A DNA stretch of 64,000 bases from Escherichia coli (lineage in GTDB: Bacteria; Pseudomonadota; Gammaproteobacteria; Enterobacterales; Enterobacteriaceae), in assembly GCF_003018235.1 (NCBI RefSeq), contig NZ_CP027437.1; one strand, written 5' to 3'. Numbering within the stretch: position 1 is the first letter of the stretch; every line of letters begins with the position of its first letter. The notes beneath the pieces were generated by a model that saw only the letters and a program-made list of their open reading frames with translations, made no database searches and had not been told where the DNA came from. The position numbers and the translations under genes were made by a program. Of this stretch, positions 19,770 to 41,567 are shown one piece after another.

Positions 19770-20013
19770 TGCGACAACCTCATACTCAAGAGTCAAAATT
19801 TGCGTAATTTTACTACAGCTGAATCGATAAAATAGCCTCTGAAGATCAAAATATACGACCGCTCGCAGCAAGCCGATGCCAGATTTGCGCTTTTTTTTCG
19901 TCGCGCCCCGCAAAATTGCATTCCAGTTAACGCGCTGGCTGTATTTGCCGCACCGCGCAGGTATACTCCTTTCCTGGTTTTTTTAATCACTACGTCGGGA
20001 GTTGTTACCCCCC

Positions 20014-35694: not shown

Positions 35695-36842
35695 TATTGC
35701 ATTGCTTTATAAGCGGTTACCGCCTCGGATACAACCTCGCTGTTGGCATCAAGACCGGAAATCTGTGCCAGCGCCGCCAGCGGACCTTTGTCAGCGATCA
35801 GTGCTGCCAGTTCCTGAGCCTGCGGATCATCTTCACTGCGGAAGTGCATTGCAGCGGCAATACCTTCAATCAGGTTTTTATGTGGCAGACTATATTCCAG
35901 CGTTCCGAGCAGTGGCTTGATCAGACGGTCGCCAGCACTCAGTTTACGCAGCGGCTGACGGCCTACGCGCTCTACATCATCTTTCAGGTACGGGTTCTCG
36001 AAACGACCGAGGATTTTCCGGATGTACGCCGCATGTTTGTCTGCGTCAAAGCCGTAGCGCTTGATCAATACTGCACCACTTTCTTCCATCGCACCTTTTA
36101 CCACCGCGCGGATTTTCTCGTCGAGAATCGCATCACGAATGGTCTGATGACCCGCCAGTTTTCCGAGGTACGCGGTTATAGCATGACCCGTATTCAGGGT
36201 GAAGAGTTTACGTTCGACAAATGCCATCAGGTTGTCGGTTAACTCCATGCCTGGGATGTTCGGCAGCGCGCCTTTGAACTGGGTTTTATCAACAATCCAT
36301 TCGCTGAATGTTTCTACCGTCACTTCCAGCGGATCGTTGGTTGCAGAAGCCGAAGGCGGCACGATGCGGTCAACGGCGGAATCGACAAAGCCAACGTGTT
36401 CTTCTACCCACGCTTTGGCATCTTCCGGCAGGGCGTTCATCACATGGCCTTTCAGCTGCGTGGTGCCGCGTACCATGTTTTCACAGGCGATAATGTTCAG
36501 CGGGGATTCATTACCTTGTTCTTTACGTTTCACCAGCCCTTTGGCGATTGCCGGGGCAATACGTTCCAGCACAACCGGACCAACGGCGGTAGTGACTAAA
36601 TCAACCAGAGCAATCAGATCAACGACATCATCACCAATGCTGCTGACGGCATTGACGCCGGAAACGGTATCTACCTGCTCGGTTTCACCGACCACATGAA
36701 CCTGATAGCTATGACGGGCATTCAGGGCATCAAGTACCACCTGATTGACATCGGCAAACGTCAGTTGGATACCCGCGTCTGCCAGCAGTTTACCGATAAA
36801 GCCACGACCGATATTACCTGCGCCAAAATGTAATGCTTTCAT
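35694..36842 (-). CDS. mtlD: Mannitol-1-phosphate 5-dehydrogenase
   Basis: ORF track 443 aa reads through intergenic palindromes; true start at ATG 36842 ([20 protein letters not shown], Rossmann) gives 382 aa. Confidence 0.9.
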
Positions 36843-36881
36843 AGTATTAACCTTCATCAATGTTTTTACCCGAGAGGGCTG

Positions 36882-36926
36882 GGGTGAGGCTTTTCCCTCA
36901 CCCAAACCCTCTCCGTGAGGAGAGGG
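36882..36926. repeat. Two adjacent GC-rich perfect hairpins in the mtlA-mtlD intergenic region
   Basis: GGGTGAGG-cttttc-CCTCACCC (36882-36903) and CCCTCTCC-gtga-GGAGAGGG (36907-36926). Confidence 0.5.
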
Positions 36927-36936
36927 TAGGATTGGA

Positions 36937-38850
36937 TTACTTACGACCTGCCAGCAGTTCCAGCACTTCATCCACGCTGGTGGTGTGTGCCAGACGCTCG
37001 ATGACGGATTCATCATCCAGTGCATTGGTCAGGCTGGTGATAACCTGAATGTGCTCGTTGTTACGGGCAGCAATACCAATTACCAGACGGGCAATGTCAT
37101 CTTCTTCTTCACCGAAGCGCACGCCTTCTGGGTACTGGCAGAACACCACGCCCGTTTTCAGTACGCGATCTTTTGCTTCAACCGTACCGTGCGGCACCGC
37201 GATAGACTCACCCAGATAAGTCGGGGTCAGTTTTTCACGATCCAACATCGCCTGAACGTATTCTGGCTCAACGTAACCGCCTTTCACCAGCTGCTCGCCA
37301 GCAAAACGAATCGCTTCTTCTTTGGTTGCCGCTTTGCGACCGAGGAAGATGTTCTCCGCGCCCAGTTTGAACAGGTTAGCACTGGAATCGTCAAAGCTGT
37401 CTTTCAGACTGTCTTTCACTTTTACTTCGTTTTCAGTATGGCGCTGAGCAGCAACCAGACGTTCGGTCAGGCTGGTGTACAGGCCGCTGTCGAGGAAGTT
37501 GGTCAGCGAAATATGCTGTGCCTGCGGAACCTGGCGCATAGCGCGTTCGGTCAGGTCACGGTGAGTGATGACCAGGTCCACATCTGGCGGCAGGTTGTTG
37601 ATCGCGCTGTTAGTAACAGAAATCTGCGACAGACCTGCATCCTGAATTTTCTTACGCAGCACGCCTGCGCCCATCGCACTGGAACCCATACCGGCATCAC
37701 AGGCAACGATGATTTTACGTACGTGGCTCAGGTCGTTAGTCACATCGCCTGCAGACAGCGGAGACGCACCTTTAGACTCAGCTTTCATGTCCTGCATACG
37801 ACGAGTTGCTGCTTCAATATCATCTTCTTCTTTCACTTTGCTGGTTTTCAGCAGAATGGCAGAGACAACGAAGGAGACAGCCATCGCCGCACACACACCC
37901 GCGATGTTAGCGAAATAAGCACCTTTTGGTGTCATCGCCAGTACAGCAAGGATAGAACCCGGAGATGCCGGAGAAACCAGACCACCGCCCAGGATAGTCA
38001 GCGTGAACACGCCAGTCATACCGCCGAGGATAACGGCCAGAATCAGACGCGGATTCATCAGCACATACGGGAAGTAGATTTCGTGGATACCGCCCAGGAA
38101 GTGGATGATTGCCGCACCGCCCGCAGACTGTTTAGCGCTACCACGCCCAAAGAACATGTACGCCAGCAGCACGCCCATACCCGGACCTGGGTTAGCTTCA
38201 ATCAGGAAGAAGATGGATTTACCCAGTTCATGGGACTGCTGAATACCCAGCGGCGAGAAGATACCGTGGTTAATGGCGTTGTTGAGGAACAGGATTTTCG
38301 CCGGTTCAACAAAGATAGACGCCAGCGGCAGCATGTCATGGACAACCATGAAGTTAACGCCCGCAGCCAGCATTTTAGACAGAGCTTCAACAATCGGGCC
38401 AATGCCGAGGAATGCCAGAATAGCGAGGATCATCCCGATGATGCCTGCGGAGAAGTTATTCACCAGCATCTCAAAACCGGATTTGATCTTACCGTCTACC
38501 CAGCGGTCGAAGTGCTTAATGCACCAGCCGCCCAGCGGACCTGCAATCATAGAACCGAGGAACATCGGCATATCTGCGCCGACGATAACGCCCATGGTGG
38601 TGATGGCACCGACTACACCGCCACGTTCGCCGCCTACCAGCTTACCACCGGTATAACCGATCAGCAGCGGCAGGAGATAAGTGATCATCGGCCCGACCAG
38701 CTTCGCCAGCGTTTCGTTCGGTAACCACCCTGTTGGAATAAATAACGCGGTGATGATACCCCACGCGATAAACGCGCCGATATTTGGCATCACCATGTTG
38801 CTGAGGAAACGACCAAAGCTTTGCACTTTGATCTTAATATCGGATGACAT
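36937..38850 (-). CDS. mtlA: PTS mannitol-specific EIICBA component
   Basis: 637 aa; N-terminal membrane EIIC, then EIIB and EIIA domains; upstream of mtlD-mtlR. Confidence 0.9.
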
Positions 38851-39110
38851 AAAAACACCCCTTCTTATGTTTGCTGTCGCGCAGGCTGGAAGCCCGAGGT
38901 TTTTTGTTAATGTGGCGGCAGAGGTAGCCGGACCTTGTAGATACTGCGAAATCTGGCACTGAATCGGTTAACTGTCCAGTCGACGGCCTTTTGTGTGATA
39001 TCAGTCACATAAATATAGGGGGTAGAGAGGTAATTGACGTGATGCTCATCACAAAACGACTGTGTAAAAAAGCAACAAGGCGGCGATTTTCGCTAAAAAT
39101 GGCATTTAAA

Positions 39111-39126
39111 TGTGAGTAATGTCACA
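39111..39126. promoter_or_regulatory. CRP binding site (perfect TGTGA-N6-TCACA) in the mtlA upstream region
   Basis: TGTGAgtaatgTCACA, about 260 bp upstream of the mtlA start. Confidence 0.55.
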
Positions 39127-39154
39127 TTTTTGTTTTGTTAGTTTGTTGAATCTT

Positions 39155-39170
39155 TGTGATCTGAATCACA
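39155..39170. promoter_or_regulatory. Second CRP binding site (perfect TGTGA-N6-TCACA) in the mtlA upstream region
   Basis: TGTGAtctgaaTCACA; a third weaker half-site, TGTGAtctgcaGCATG, lies at 39198-39213. Confidence 0.55.
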
Positions 39171-39386
39171 AGATATTTTCTTACGGCGTTCACCTGATGT
39201 GATCTGCAGCATGTTATGCCTTCGTCATAAAATCGTTATGTAACTAAGCAACTCATCACCTCTAAAAATTATTCTTTGGTGTTATGGCGAGAATCGCGAA
39301 CCCGAATTATTGTCAAAATATCAGCCTGACTCCCTTCTGGCTGCCAGCCAAAAAACAACACCGATAAACGTGAATCCGAGGCAGAT

Positions 39387-39749
39387 ATGTTTCTAAACTA
39401 TTTCGCGTTGGGAGTGCTGATCTTCGTCTTTCTGGTGATTTTTTATGGAATCATCGCGATACATGACATCCCTTATCTGATTGCCAAAAAGCGCAACCAT
39501 CCCCATGCCGACGCTATTCATACGGCGGGCTGGGTGAGCCTGTTTACTCTACATGTTATCTGGCCGTTCCTGTGGATCTGGGCGACGCTCTATCAACCGG
39601 AGCGCGGCTGGGGCATGCAGTCACATGTTGCGTCGCAAGAGAAAGCGACTGACCCGGAAATCGCCGCACTTTCTGACCGAATTTCCCGGCTGGAGCACCA
39701 ACTCGCCGCCGAGAAAAAGACTGACTATTCCACGTTCCCGGAGATCTAA
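39387..39749 (+). CDS. yibI: Small inner membrane protein YibI (DUF3302)
   Basis: 120 aa, N-terminal TM helices; divergent from mtlA and followed 2 bp later by yibH. Confidence 0.75.
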
Positions 39750-39751
39750 AT

Positions 39752-40888
39752 ATGGATCTATTGATTGTTTTAACTTACGTGGCGCTGGCGTGGGCGGTCT
39801 TTAAAATCTTCCGCATTCCGGTGAATCAGTGGACGCTGGCGACGGCGGCGCTGGGAGGCGTGTTTCTGGTGAGTGGTTTGATTTTGTTGATGAACTACAA
39901 CCACCCTTACACTTTTACCGCGCAAAAGGCAGTGATAGCGATCCCCATCACGCCACAGGTGACGGGAATTGTTACTGAAGTCACCGACAAAAATAATCAG
40001 CTTATTCAAAAGGGCGAGGTGCTTTTTAAACTCGACCCGGTTCGTTACCAGGCGCGAGTTGACAGACTTCAGGCTGACCTGATGACGGCGACGCATAATA
40101 TAAAGACGCTGCGCGCGCAGCTCACTGAAGCGCAGGCCAACACCACCCAGGTTTCAGCGGAGCGCGACCGTCTGTTTAAAAATTATCAACGTTATCTGAA
40201 AGGCAGCCAGGCGGCGGTGAATCCGTTCTCGGAACGTGACATCGACGATGCGCGGCAAAATTTCCTCGCGCAGGATGCGCTGGTGAAAGGCTCGGTGGCG
40301 GAGCAGGCGCAGATCCAGAGCCAGCTCGATAGTATGGTTAACGGCGAGCAATCGCAGATTGTGAGCTTAAGAGCGCAACTTACTGAAGCAAAATATAACC
40401 TTGAGCAGACTGTCATTCGCGCGCCGAGCAATGGCTACGTTACTCAGGTACTGATCCGCCCAGGTACATACGCAGCTGCCTTGCCGTTGCGTCCGGTGAT
40501 GGTTTTCATCCCCGAGCAAAAACGGCAAATTGTCGCCCAATTTCGGCAAAACTCGCTGTTACGTCTGAAACCCGGCGATGATGCGGAAGTGGTGTTTAAC
40601 GCGCTACCTGGGCAGGTGTTCCACGGCAAACTGACCAGTATTTTACCTGTCGTGCCAGGCGGTTCTTATCAGGCGCAGGGGGTATTGCAATCATTAACGG
40701 TCGTGCCCGGCACGGACGGTGTGCTGGGAACCATTGAACTGGACCCTAACGATGATATCGATGCCTTACCCGACGGCATCTACGCCCAGGTGGCGGTTTA
40801 CTCCGACCATTTCAGCCATGTTTCGGTGATGCGGAAAGTGCTGCTAAGAATGACCAGCTGGATGCATTATCTTTATTTGGATCATTGA
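39752..40888 (+). CDS. yibH: HlyD-family membrane fusion/secretion protein
   Basis: 378 aa, N-terminal TM anchor, long coiled coil and barrel-sandwich hybrid region. Confidence 0.8.
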
Positions 40889-40958
40889 GACTTATATCAC
40901 CTGTGTTTTGCGTGAGCCTGAGCCATACTGATATTTTTCCTCGCACAAAGGACTCGGC

Positions 40959-41567
40959 ATGAAACTCGTCGGTAGCTACACCAGCCCGTTTGTACGCAAA
41001 CTTTCTATTCTGTTGTTAGAAAAGGGCATAACTTTCGAATTTATTAATGAACTGCCCTATAACGCGGACAACGGCGTGGCGCAATTTAACCCGTTAGGGA
41101 AAGTGCCGGTGCTGGTGACCGAAGAGGGCGAATGTTGGTTTGATTCGCCGATCATCGCTGAATATATTGAATTAATGAATGTCGCTCCGGCGATGTTGCC
41201 GCGCGATCCGCTGGAGTCGTTGCGGGTGCGCAAAATTGAGGCGCTGGCGGATGGCATTATGGATGCCGGGCTGGTATCGGTGCGTGAACAGGCGCGTCCG
41301 GCGGCGCAGCAGTCTGAAGATGAATTGTTACGCCAGCGGGAGAAAATCAACCGCAGTCTGGATGTGCTGGAAGGATATCTGGTCGATGGCACGCTCAAAA
41401 CCGATACGGTCAATCTGGCGACTATCGCCATTGCCTGTGCCGTCGGATATCTCAATTTCCGCCGCGTTGCGCCAGGCTGGTGTGTCGACCGCCCACACTT
41501 AGTCAAACTGGTCGAAAACCTGTTTAGCCGCGAAAGTTTTGCTCGCACCGAACCGCCAAAGGCTTGA
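40959..41567 (+). CDS. yibF: Glutathione S-transferase-like protein
   Basis: 202 aa GST fold ([24 protein letters not shown]...); position before selA. Confidence 0.8.

What the first reader, a model, noticed from the sequence alone, without database searches (positions are those of the whole stretch)
39100..39215. Two perfect CRP sites (plus a third half-site) in the mtlA upstream region
TGTGAgtaatgTCACA (39111-39126) and TGTGAtctgaaTCACA (39155-39170) both match the CRP consensus core exactly, with a weaker TGTGA-N6-GCATG at 39198-39213. Multiple CRP sites fit the known catabolite control of the mannitol operon. The same intergenic region also serves the divergent yibI-yibH genes, so these sites may regulate both directions.
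Basis: partly seen in the sequence, partly recalled or inferred. Interest (0 to 1): 0.3.

Follow-up and report, generated by a model that had tools for sequence, protein, structure and literature searches.

The report
Known five-site CRP array of mtlA
The two perfect CRP sites and the weak third one are real, but they are the three promoter-distal members of the already well-studied five-site CRP array that switches the E. coli mannitol operon on and also docks its repressor MtlR, so the finding is correct but ordinary.

Summary
The window is E. coli. mtlA runs leftward from 38850 and yibI rightward from 39387. They are CRP3 (39111-39126), CRP2 (39155-39170) and CRP1 (39198-39213) of the published mtl operator.

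The centre-to-centre spacings of 43, 44, 73 and 44 bp match the published -262.5, -219.5, -175.5, -102.5 and -58.5 positions exactly.

A matrix built from independent ChIP-seq sites ranks CRP2, 5, 4 and 3 as the four best 16-mers in the 64 kb. CRP1 is at chance level on sequence alone and is supported only by its spacing.

In 40 Enterobacterales species the 44-73-44 spacing is invariant and the core bases are conserved, whether or not yibI is the neighbour.

Published experiments show that CRP2, 4 and 5 are essential for activation and that CRP1 is dispensable. They also show that MtlR, which has no DNA-binding domain, represses by bridging CRP dimers 43-46 bp apart.

Catabolite control of mtlA is supported. 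Control of yibI is untested, and the comparative evidence argues against it. The feature is already known and of low interest.

The parts
39198..39213 (.). CRP1, the weak distal site TGTGAtctgcaGCATG (7 of 10 core bases), centred at -262.5 from the mtlA start site.
   Evidence: Sequence. It scores 9.8 bits, rank 14, and lies 43 bp from CRP2. The literature reports it as dispensable and left unoccupied when CRP2 and CRP3 are available. A site of at least 9 bits 41-43 bp upstream of CRP2 is present in 14 of the 40 Enterobacterales loci that keep the 44-73-44 spacing.
39155..39170 (.). CRP2, the perfect site TGTGAtctgaaTCACA, centred at -219.5.
   Evidence: It scores 19.8 bits, the best in the window. 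Its core is conserved at 1.85 bits per column across 40 species. It is essential for mtl expression in a chromosomal mutant and lies under a ChIP-seq peak in ETEC.
39111..39126 (.). CRP3, the perfect site TGTGAgtaatgTCACA, centred at -175.5.
   Evidence: It scores 15.2 bits, with core conservation of 1.76 bits per column. Mutating it gives a slight reduction in expression.
39038..39053 (.). CRP4, CGTGAtgctcaTCACA (9 of 10 core bases), centred at -102.5.
   Evidence: It scores 16.9 bits, with core conservation of 1.79 bits per column. It is essential for expression.
38994..39009 (.). CRP5, the perfect site TGTGAtatcagTCACA, centred at -58.5.
   Evidence: It scores 17.1 bits, with core conservation of 1.71 bits per column. 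It is essential for expression and lies under a ChIP-seq peak.
38973..38978 (-). The -35 element of the mtlA promoter, TGGACA, at -35 to -30.
   Evidence: Its position follows from anchoring the published site centres on the window, which puts the start site at about 38943. The block is conserved in the 40-species profile.
38950..38955 (-). The -10 element of the mtlA promoter, CAGATT, at -12 to -7. The 17-bp spacer and the inferred start site at about 38943 give a 5' UTR of about 93 nt.
   Evidence: It matches only 3 of 6 consensus bases, so the generic promoter scan did not find it. That is typical of an activator-dependent promoter.
38958..38971 (+). A full match, ACTGAATCGGTTAA, to the Cra (FruR) consensus RSTGAAWCSNTHHW, lying between the -35 and -10 elements.
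   Evidence: 4 matches in the window against 0.51 expected. Cra is cited as a repressor of mtl. Its binding at this exact position is my inference.
39142..39147 (-). The block AACAAA at -204 to -199 in the CRP2-CRP3 spacer. It is as conserved as the CRP cores and its role is unknown.
   Evidence: 1.0-1.8+ bits per column. (ACAAA is present in this spacer in 42 of 47 loci, but absent in Aeromonas, Vibrionaceae and Tolumonas).
36937..38850 (-). mtlA, the mannitol PTS enzyme IICBA and the first gene of the regulated operon.
35694..36842 (-). mtlD, mannitol-1-phosphate 5-dehydrogenase.
35107..35694 (-). mtlR, the repressor without a DNA-binding domain that docks on paired CRP dimers. The window copy keeps R167 and L178, the published CRP-contact residues.
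   Evidence: published contacts.
39387..39749 (+). yibI (DUF3302), the divergent neighbour, followed by yibH (39752-40888, HlyD-like). It shares the spacer but is not shown to be controlled by the array.

Best explanation
The three sites are the distal part (CRP3, CRP2, CRP1) of the five-site cAMP-CRP operator of the mtlADR operon.

The promoter itself is weak: -35 TGGACA, -10 CAGATT, start site at about 38943 on the minus strand. It depends on CRP. CRP5 at -58.5 probably recruits RNA polymerase directly. CRP4 (-102.5), CRP2 (-219.5) and, to a lesser degree, CRP3 (-175.5) are also needed. How they act is unresolved; an architectural, looping or anti-silencing role has been proposed.

The sites form two pairs with 44 bp between centres, CRP2/3 and CRP4/5, separated by 73 bp. 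The weak CRP1 lies 43 bp beyond CRP2.

The 43-46 bp spacing is what the repressor reads. An MtlR dimer has no DNA-binding domain. It bridges two CRP dimers bound at that distance and blocks CRP-dependent activation. When mannitol is transported, dephosphorylated enzyme II-Mtl pulls MtlR to the membrane and repression ends. Dephospho-HPr, which accumulates on glucose, counteracts this.

Shown here: the sites, their scores, their spacing, their conservation and their independence from yibI. Taken from the literature: binding, activation, and the MtlR mechanism.
For: Identity and layout:
- The window is 98% identical to K-12 across the spacer with no indels. Every substitution inside a CRP site falls in its central 6 bp.
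- Site centres at 39001.5, 39045.5, 39118.5, 39162.5 and 39205.5 give spacings of 44, 73, 44 and 43 bp. These are identical to the published centres of -58.5, -102.5, -175.5, -219.5 and -262.5.

Strength of the sites:
- Only three exact consensus cores occur in 64 kb, all here.
- The ChIP-derived matrix ranks the four strong sites 1 to 4, against 0.17 such sites expected.

Conservation:
- 40 Enterobacterales species keep exactly 44-73-44.
- Core positions carry 1.7-1.85 bits per column, against 0.44-0.61 for the central 6 bp and 0.56 for inter-site DNA. The -35 and -10 elements are conserved in register.
- Aeromonas, Tolumonas and some Vibrionaceae keep 45-73-44-like layouts. Firmicute mtlA loci have 0-1 weak hits.

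Repressor:
- mtlR is present in the operon with R167 and L178 intact.

Literature:
- Five footprinted sites.
- EMSA, spacing series, chromosomal site mutants and the MtlR mechanism.
- Two ChIP-seq peaks over the array in ETEC.
- SELEX enrichment of this spacer.
Against: Nothing in the sequence conflicts with this explanation. The remaining gaps are as follows.
- The start site position was transferred from the published numbering and was not measured for this strain.
- No binding or expression data exist for this particular strain, although its cores are identical to K-12.
- CRP5 at -58.5 is about 3 bp off the classical -61.5 class I position.
- How sites more than 170 bp upstream activate transcription is unresolved in the literature.
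- CRP1 on its own is not distinguishable from chance matches, and it is dispensable.
Confidence: 0.94

Rival explanations
1. The array is bidirectional. The distal sites (CRP1, CRP2, CRP3) also activate or repress the divergent yibI-yibH promoter, as CRP does at malEp-malKp.
For: - yibI and mtlA share the 536-bp spacer.
- The ChIP-seq table lists the distal peak (CRP2 plus CRP1) under yibI.
- The SELEX paper notes that both genes lie downstream of the bound DNA.
- A sigma-70-like pair sits on the yibI strand: TCTGCA (39203-39208), a 19-bp spacer, then TAAAAT (39228-39233). In K-12 this reads TCTACA-19-TACAAT, and it is listed in a holoenzyme SELEX table for this spacer. It overlaps CRP1, so CRP bound there could affect it.
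Against: - The assignments to yibI are by distance only. No crp-dependent yibI expression was found in the searchable literature.
- The array is invariant in at least 28 Enterobacterales species that lack yibI upstream of mtlA.
- Where yibI is present, the distance from CRP2 to its ATG is 121, 220-224 or 344-355 bp, so no fixed register exists.
- The yibI-proximal DNA is poorly conserved, at 55% mean column identity.
- A urine-induced yibI promoter-trap insert maps to 39242-39477 and contains none of the sites.
- CRP1, the nearest site, is weak and unoccupied in vitro when CRP2 and CRP3 are present.
Confidence: 0.1
2. The weak third site (CRP1, 39198-39213) is a non-functional near-match, either a vestige or a chance occurrence, and not a working CRP site.
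For: - It has 7 of 10 core bases. Three-mismatch matches are at chance frequency, and about 8.6 sites of its score or better are expected per 64 kb.
- The chromosomal CRP1 mutant behaves like wild type, and the site stays empty in EMSA when CRP2 and CRP3 are available.
- No site of at least 9 bits occupies that position in 26 of the 40 Enterobacterales loci that keep the 44-73-44 spacing.
Against: - Its spacing of 43 bp from CRP2 has a chance probability of about 0.001.
- A comparable site at 41-43 bp is present in 14 species from several genera, with or without yibI.
- It was among the five footprinted sites, and MEME picked it under the ChIP peak.
- CRP1 and CRP2 together can recruit MtlR, and they appear to back up CRP3 when that site is mutated.
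Confidence: 0.35
3. The matches are chance palindromes with no regulatory role.
For: None beyond the general point that short consensus matches do occur by chance.
Against: - Three exact cores were found against 0.04 expected, all within 177 bp.
- The four strong sites are the top four matrix scores in the window.
- Cores and spacing are conserved across 40 species, while the DNA between them is not.
- Direct published binding and mutant data exist.
Confidence: 0.01

Closest known systems
E. coli K-12 mtlADR operator with five cAMP-CRP sites (Ramseier & Saier 1995; Lee et al., Nucleic Acids Res 2026, PMC13421365)
   Same: It is the same locus. The five sites are the same, the spacings of 43, 44, 73 and 44 bp are the same, and the -35 and -10 elements and core pentamers are identical. 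mtlR is intact, with its CRP-contact residues R167 and L178.
   Different: There are about a dozen single-base differences from K-12 in the spacer. Those inside sites fall in the non-contacted central 6 bp: CRP5 T to C; CRP4 A to G and G to A; CRP3 C to T; CRP1 T to C, all read on the mtlA strand. No functional difference is expected.
malEp-malKp divergent control region (three to four CRP sites between two divergent promoters)
   Same: Several CRP sites lie in a spacer between divergent genes.
   Different: At mal the CRP sites, together with MalT, demonstrably serve both promoters. They are 34 bp apart and do not recruit MtlR. At mtl there is no evidence for the second direction, and the array is conserved where the divergent gene is absent.
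CytR-CRP repression complexes (for example deoP2)
   Same: A repressor acts by contacting tandem DNA-bound CRP dimers and turns the activator into part of a repression complex.
   Different: CytR is itself a DNA-binding protein of the LacI family. MtlR has no DNA-binding domain and reads only the 43-46 bp geometry of two CRP dimers.

Membership tests
cAMP-CRP binding site | A 16-bp two-fold symmetric core, TGTGA-N6-TCACA | tested here: met
   CRP2, CRP3 and CRP5 match 10 of 10 core bases, CRP4 matches 9 of 10 and CRP1 matches 7 of 10. For CRP1 taken alone the match is at chance level.
cAMP-CRP binding site | A score within the range of sites bound in vivo, using a matrix built from independent ChIP-seq sites | tested here: met
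   The scores are 19.8, 17.1, 16.9, 15.2 and 9.8 bits. The training-site median is 12.8 and the 10th percentile is 8.1. The four strong sites are ranks 1-4 of 63,985 positions, with 0.17 such sites expected by chance.
cAMP-CRP binding site | A phylogenetic footprint: the contacted core bases are conserved while the central spacer and flanks drift | tested here: met
   Across 40 species the cores carry 1.71-1.85 bits per column, the central 6 bp 0.44-0.61 and the inter-site DNA 0.56.
cAMP-CRP binding site | Physical, cAMP-dependent binding of CRP | not testable with these tools
   Published for K-12 (footprints in 1995, EMSA in 2026) and for ETEC in vivo by ChIP-seq. The site cores there are identical to those of the window.
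cAMP-CRP binding site | Transcription of the target depends on CRP and on the sites | not testable with these tools
   Published: a crp deletion strain has low mtlA expression and cannot grow on mannitol. Mutants of CRP2, CRP4 or CRP5 lose expression, CRP3 gives a slight loss and CRP1 none.
MtlR-recruiting mtl operator (paired CRP dimers) | Adjacent CRP sites 43-46 bp apart, centre to centre | tested here: met
   The spacings are 43 bp (CRP1-2), 44 bp (CRP2-3) and 44 bp (CRP4-5). CRP3-4 is 73 bp and is not a recruiting pair. The 44-73-44 spacing is invariant in 40 species.
MtlR-recruiting mtl operator (paired CRP dimers) | An mtlR gene in the operon, with the CRP-contact residues R167 and L178 | tested here: met
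   There is a 195-aa ORF at 35107-35694 (minus strand) downstream of mtlD. R167 and L178 are present (residues defined).
MtlR-recruiting mtl operator (paired CRP dimers) | Formation of the ternary MtlR-CRP-DNA complex, and repression relieved by mannitol | not testable with these tools
   Published for K-12 and Salmonella.
Divergent CRP-controlled promoter pair (yibI as second target) | The array co-occurs with the second gene | tested here: not met
   yibI and yibH flank mtlA in only 12 of the 40 loci that keep the 44-73-44 spacing. The array is unchanged in the other 28.
Divergent CRP-controlled promoter pair (yibI as second target) | A fixed register between a CRP site and the second promoter or gene | tested here: not met
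   The distance from CRP2 to the yibI ATG is 121, 220-224 or 344-355 bp in different genera. No conserved promoter block is shared.
Divergent CRP-controlled promoter pair (yibI as second target) | yibI transcription depends on CRP or on the sites | not testable with these tools
   No such data were found. A promoter-trap insert lacking all the sites was still recovered as urine-induced. This is suggestive only, because it rests on a single clone carried on a plasmid.

The most novel reading that the evidence does not exclude
In Escherichia and Citrobacter, where yibIH has come to lie about 180-220 bp from the distal end of the array, CRP bound at CRP1 and CRP2 may also modulate a yibI promoter that overlaps CRP1 (TCTGCA-19-TAAAAT, 39203-39233). 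MtlR docked on that pair could contribute. This would tie expression of the uncharacterised DUF3302 and HlyD-like membrane pair to cAMP and to mannitol/PTS status.
Probability: 0.08. Interest if true: 0.3.

Novelty: already known. Interest (0 to 1): 0.08.

Why it matters
It matters little as a discovery. The five-site CRP array of the mannitol operon has been known since 1995, and its logic was worked out experimentally in 2026: the proximal sites and CRP2 are needed for activation, and the 43-46 bp spacing serves as the docking geometry for the repressor MtlR, which has no DNA-binding domain.

This check adds three things. It shows independently that the 44-73-44 architecture is invariant across 40 Enterobacterales species. 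It also shows that the architecture travels with mtlADR and not with yibI, which weakens the one speculative part of the finding.

Tried and rejected
- Core-only matching with up to 3 mismatches found 205 hits against 222 expected. It is useless for judging the weak site, so I replaced it with a matrix built from published ChIP-seq sites, leaving the mtl sites out.
- The generic sigma-70 scan of 38800-39450 did not find the real mtlA promoter. It found only one irrelevant hit inside mtlA. The real -10 element, CAGATT, matches only 3 of 6 consensus bases, as expected for a CRP-dependent promoter. The promoter was placed instead from the published site numbering and from cross-species conservation.
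- I tried to locate a conserved yibI promoter by aligning the yibI-proximal DNA of 12 species. The result was 55% identity, and only the Shine-Dalgarno sequence and the ATG were invariant. No promoter could be assigned.
- Literature searches for crp-dependent yibI expression found only proximity-based assignments.
- I considered that the distal sites might belong to yibI rather than to mtlA. I rejected this on the comparative evidence.

Full report
**Locus**

The window is Escherichia coli. An 801-bp stretch around the finding is 100% identical to several complete E. coli genomes and is present in 5,404 of 5,426.

mtlA (mannitol PTS enzyme IICBA) lies on the minus strand at 36937-38850. It is followed by mtlD (35694-36842) and mtlR (35107-35694). 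yibI (DUF3302, 39387-39749) and yibH (HlyD-like, 39752-40888) run the other way. The shared spacer is 38851-39386, 536 bp long.

**Observation**

Exact TGTGA-N6-TCACA occurs three times in the 64 kb, against 0.04 expected, and all three are in this spacer. The third perfect site is 38994-39009. A one-mismatch site, CGTGAtgctcaTCACA, lies at 39038-39053. Both are nearer to mtlA than the reported sites.

For a score that does not depend on the sites themselves, I built a symmetrised matrix from the 103 CRP sites under ChIP-seq peaks in ETEC H10407 (PMC4287617, Table 1). The four mtlA/yibI entries were left out.

- The four strong sites score 19.8, 17.1, 16.9 and 15.2 bits. They are the four best of the 63,985 positions in the window.
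- The next best site anywhere scores 12.2 bits.
- Dinucleotide shuffles give 0.17 sites of 15 bits or more per 64 kb.

On sequence alone that is chance level. One search found 205 three-mismatch matches against 222 expected, and expects about 8.6 sites of its score or better per window. However, a site of that strength lying 43-46 bp beyond either end of the array has a chance probability of about 0.001.

**What it is**

The five site centres are 39001.5, 39045.5, 39118.5, 39162.5 and 39205.5. They are spaced 44, 73, 44 and 43 bp apart.

This is exactly the published mtl operator. CRP5, CRP4, CRP3, CRP2 and CRP1 are centred at -58.5, -102.5, -175.5, -219.5 and -262.5 from the S1-mapped start site, with the same spacings (Lee et al., Nucleic Acids Res 2026, PMC13421365). 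The five sites were first footprinted by Ramseier & Saier in 1995 (cited).

Anchoring the published numbering on the window puts the start site at about 38943 on the minus strand. The -10 element is CAGATT at 38950-38955 and the -35 element is TGGACA at 38973-38978, with a 17-bp spacer. The 5' UTR is about 93 nt.

The window differs from K-12 at about a dozen positions in the spacer and has no indels. Every difference inside a CRP site falls in its central 6 bp.

**Independent comparative evidence**

A scan of one genome per species with MtlA returned 80 loci. I scanned the 600 bp upstream of each mtlA with the matrix.

- Forty Enterobacterales species have four strong sites spaced exactly 44-73-44. 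They include Escherichia, Citrobacter, Enterobacter, Klebsiella, Cedecea, Pantoea, Erwinia, Serratia, Yersinia, Rahnella, Pectobacterium, Hafnia and Budvicia.
- Providencia (44-72-44), Edwardsiella (44-63-44), Aeromonas (45-73-44), Tolumonas (45-74-43) and some Vibrionaceae are close variants.
- Firmicute mtlA loci, which serve as a natural negative control, have 0-1 weak hits.

In a gapless profile of the 40 operators, the ten core positions of each site carry 1.71-1.85 bits per column. The central 6 bp carry 0.44-0.61 and the inter-site DNA 0.56. The -35 and -10 blocks are conserved in register.

A CRP1-like site 41-43 bp beyond CRP2 is present in 14 of the 40.

**How it works (from the literature)**

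- CRP is required. A crp deletion strain has low mtlA expression and cannot grow on mannitol.
- Chromosomal replacement of CRP2, CRP4 or CRP5 abolishes expression and growth. Replacing CRP3 gives a slight loss, and replacing CRP1 gives none. In vitro, CRP1 stays empty when CRP2 and CRP3 are available.
- CRP5 is thought to contact RNA polymerase. How the far-upstream sites contribute is unresolved; looping, helical phasing and anti-silencing have been proposed.
- MtlR has no DNA-binding domain. [quoted passage not shown] It contacts CRP near activating region 2 and blocks activation.
- On mannitol, dephosphorylated enzyme II-Mtl sequesters MtlR at the membrane. Dephospho-HPr competes for MtlR and restores repression on glucose.
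- The window's MtlR keeps the contact residues R167 and L178.
- In vivo, ChIP-seq in ETEC shows two CRP peaks 136 bp apart over the array. This spacer was the second most abundant CRP SELEX clone.

**The yibI idea**

I found no direct evidence for this.

The ChIP-seq table lists the distal peak under yibI, and the SELEX paper notes that both genes are downstream of the bound DNA. Both assignments rest on position only.

Comparative data argue that the array belongs to mtlADR.

- yibIH is the divergent neighbour in only 12 of the 40 loci that keep the 44-73-44 spacing. The array is unchanged in the other 28.
- Where yibI is present, CRP2 lies 121 bp (Pseudescherichia), 220-224 bp (Escherichia, Citrobacter, Pseudocitrobacter) or 344-355 bp (Enterobacter, Leclercia) from its ATG.
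- The yibI-proximal DNA shows no conserved promoter block.
- In a UPEC promoter-trap screen, two urine-induced yibI inserts were recovered. Mapped onto the window, they cover 39057-39538 and 39242-39477. The shorter insert contains no CRP site, so a yibI promoter seems to lie within 145 bp of the ATG and to be active without the sites.

One feature keeps the idea alive. A sigma-70-like pair on the yibI strand overlaps CRP1: TCTGCA (39203-39208), a 19-bp spacer, then TAAAAT (39228-39233). In K-12 it reads TCTACA-19-TACAAT and is listed for this spacer in a holoenzyme SELEX table. I rate bidirectional control at about 0.1.

**Verdict**

The catabolite-control interpretation is correct and already known in detail. 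The bidirectional suggestion is unsupported. Novelty: already known. Interest is low.

Side observations are listed separately. They cover the conserved AACAAA block in the CRP2-CRP3 spacer, a full Cra consensus inside the core promoter, a YadA-type adhesin with 234-bp repeats, the absent rhsA island, and the short mtlA-mtlD spacer.

Noticed in passing
window 39142-39147 (minus strand AACAAA, -204 to -199) and 39174-39180 (A-tract, -237 to -231): In the 40-species profile, a 6-bp block AACAAA inside the CRP2-CRP3 spacer is as conserved as the CRP cores (up to 1.8 or more bits per column). ACAAA is present in that spacer in 42 of 47 loci, but is missing in Aeromonas, Vibrionaceae and Tolumonas. 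An A-tract just upstream of CRP2 is also conserved. The 2026 paper describes the spacers as lacking sequence similarity to each other and does not discuss this block. It could be a curvature or alpha-CTD element relevant to the unexplained long-range activation.
   Followed up: partly
window 38958-38971: ACTGAATCGGTTAA matches all 14 positions of the Cra (FruR) consensus RSTGAAWCSNTHHW. It lies between the -35 and -10 elements of the mtlA promoter. The pattern occurs 4 times in the window against 0.51 expected; the other matches are at 19818, 40216 and 63298. This fits the reported repression of mtl by Cra. The exact published site position was not checked.
   Followed up: partly
window 27777-32951 (minus strand), repeats at 30171-31392: A 1,724-aa intact ORF encodes a YadA-type trimeric autotransporter adhesin. 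It has an ESPR signal, 8 head repeats, 14 stalk repeats and a membrane anchor. It contains a 234-bp tandem repeat of 4.1 copies at 94% identity. In strain 118UI the corresponding region is annotated as two overlapping CDSs.
   Followed up: partly
window 40888-40959: Here yibH is followed directly by yibF and selA. K-12 carries an island of about 8.3 kb at this junction, containing rhsA, yibA, yibJ, yibG, yibS, yibW, yibV and yibU. The Rhs element is therefore absent from this strain, as it is in strain 118UI.
   Followed up: yes
window 36843-36936: The mtlA-mtlD spacer is only 94 bp here, against 228 bp in strain 118UI and, from memory, about 229 bp in K-12. It holds one G+C-rich palindromic hairpin, ccctctcctcacggagaggg, followed by tttgggtgaggg. 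This looks like variation in the copy number of a repetitive extragenic element. It also shows that the window does not come from strain 118UI, despite the 100% match in the promoter region.
   Followed up: no
mtlA/yibI spacer (literature, E. coli long-term stationary-phase lineages): A 1,200-day evolution experiment reports a fixed 1-bp insertion in the mtlA/yibI intergenic region, with no position given (PMC7858067). MtlR recruitment depends on a 43-46 bp site spacing, so a 1-bp indel between paired sites could change repression.
   Followed up: no
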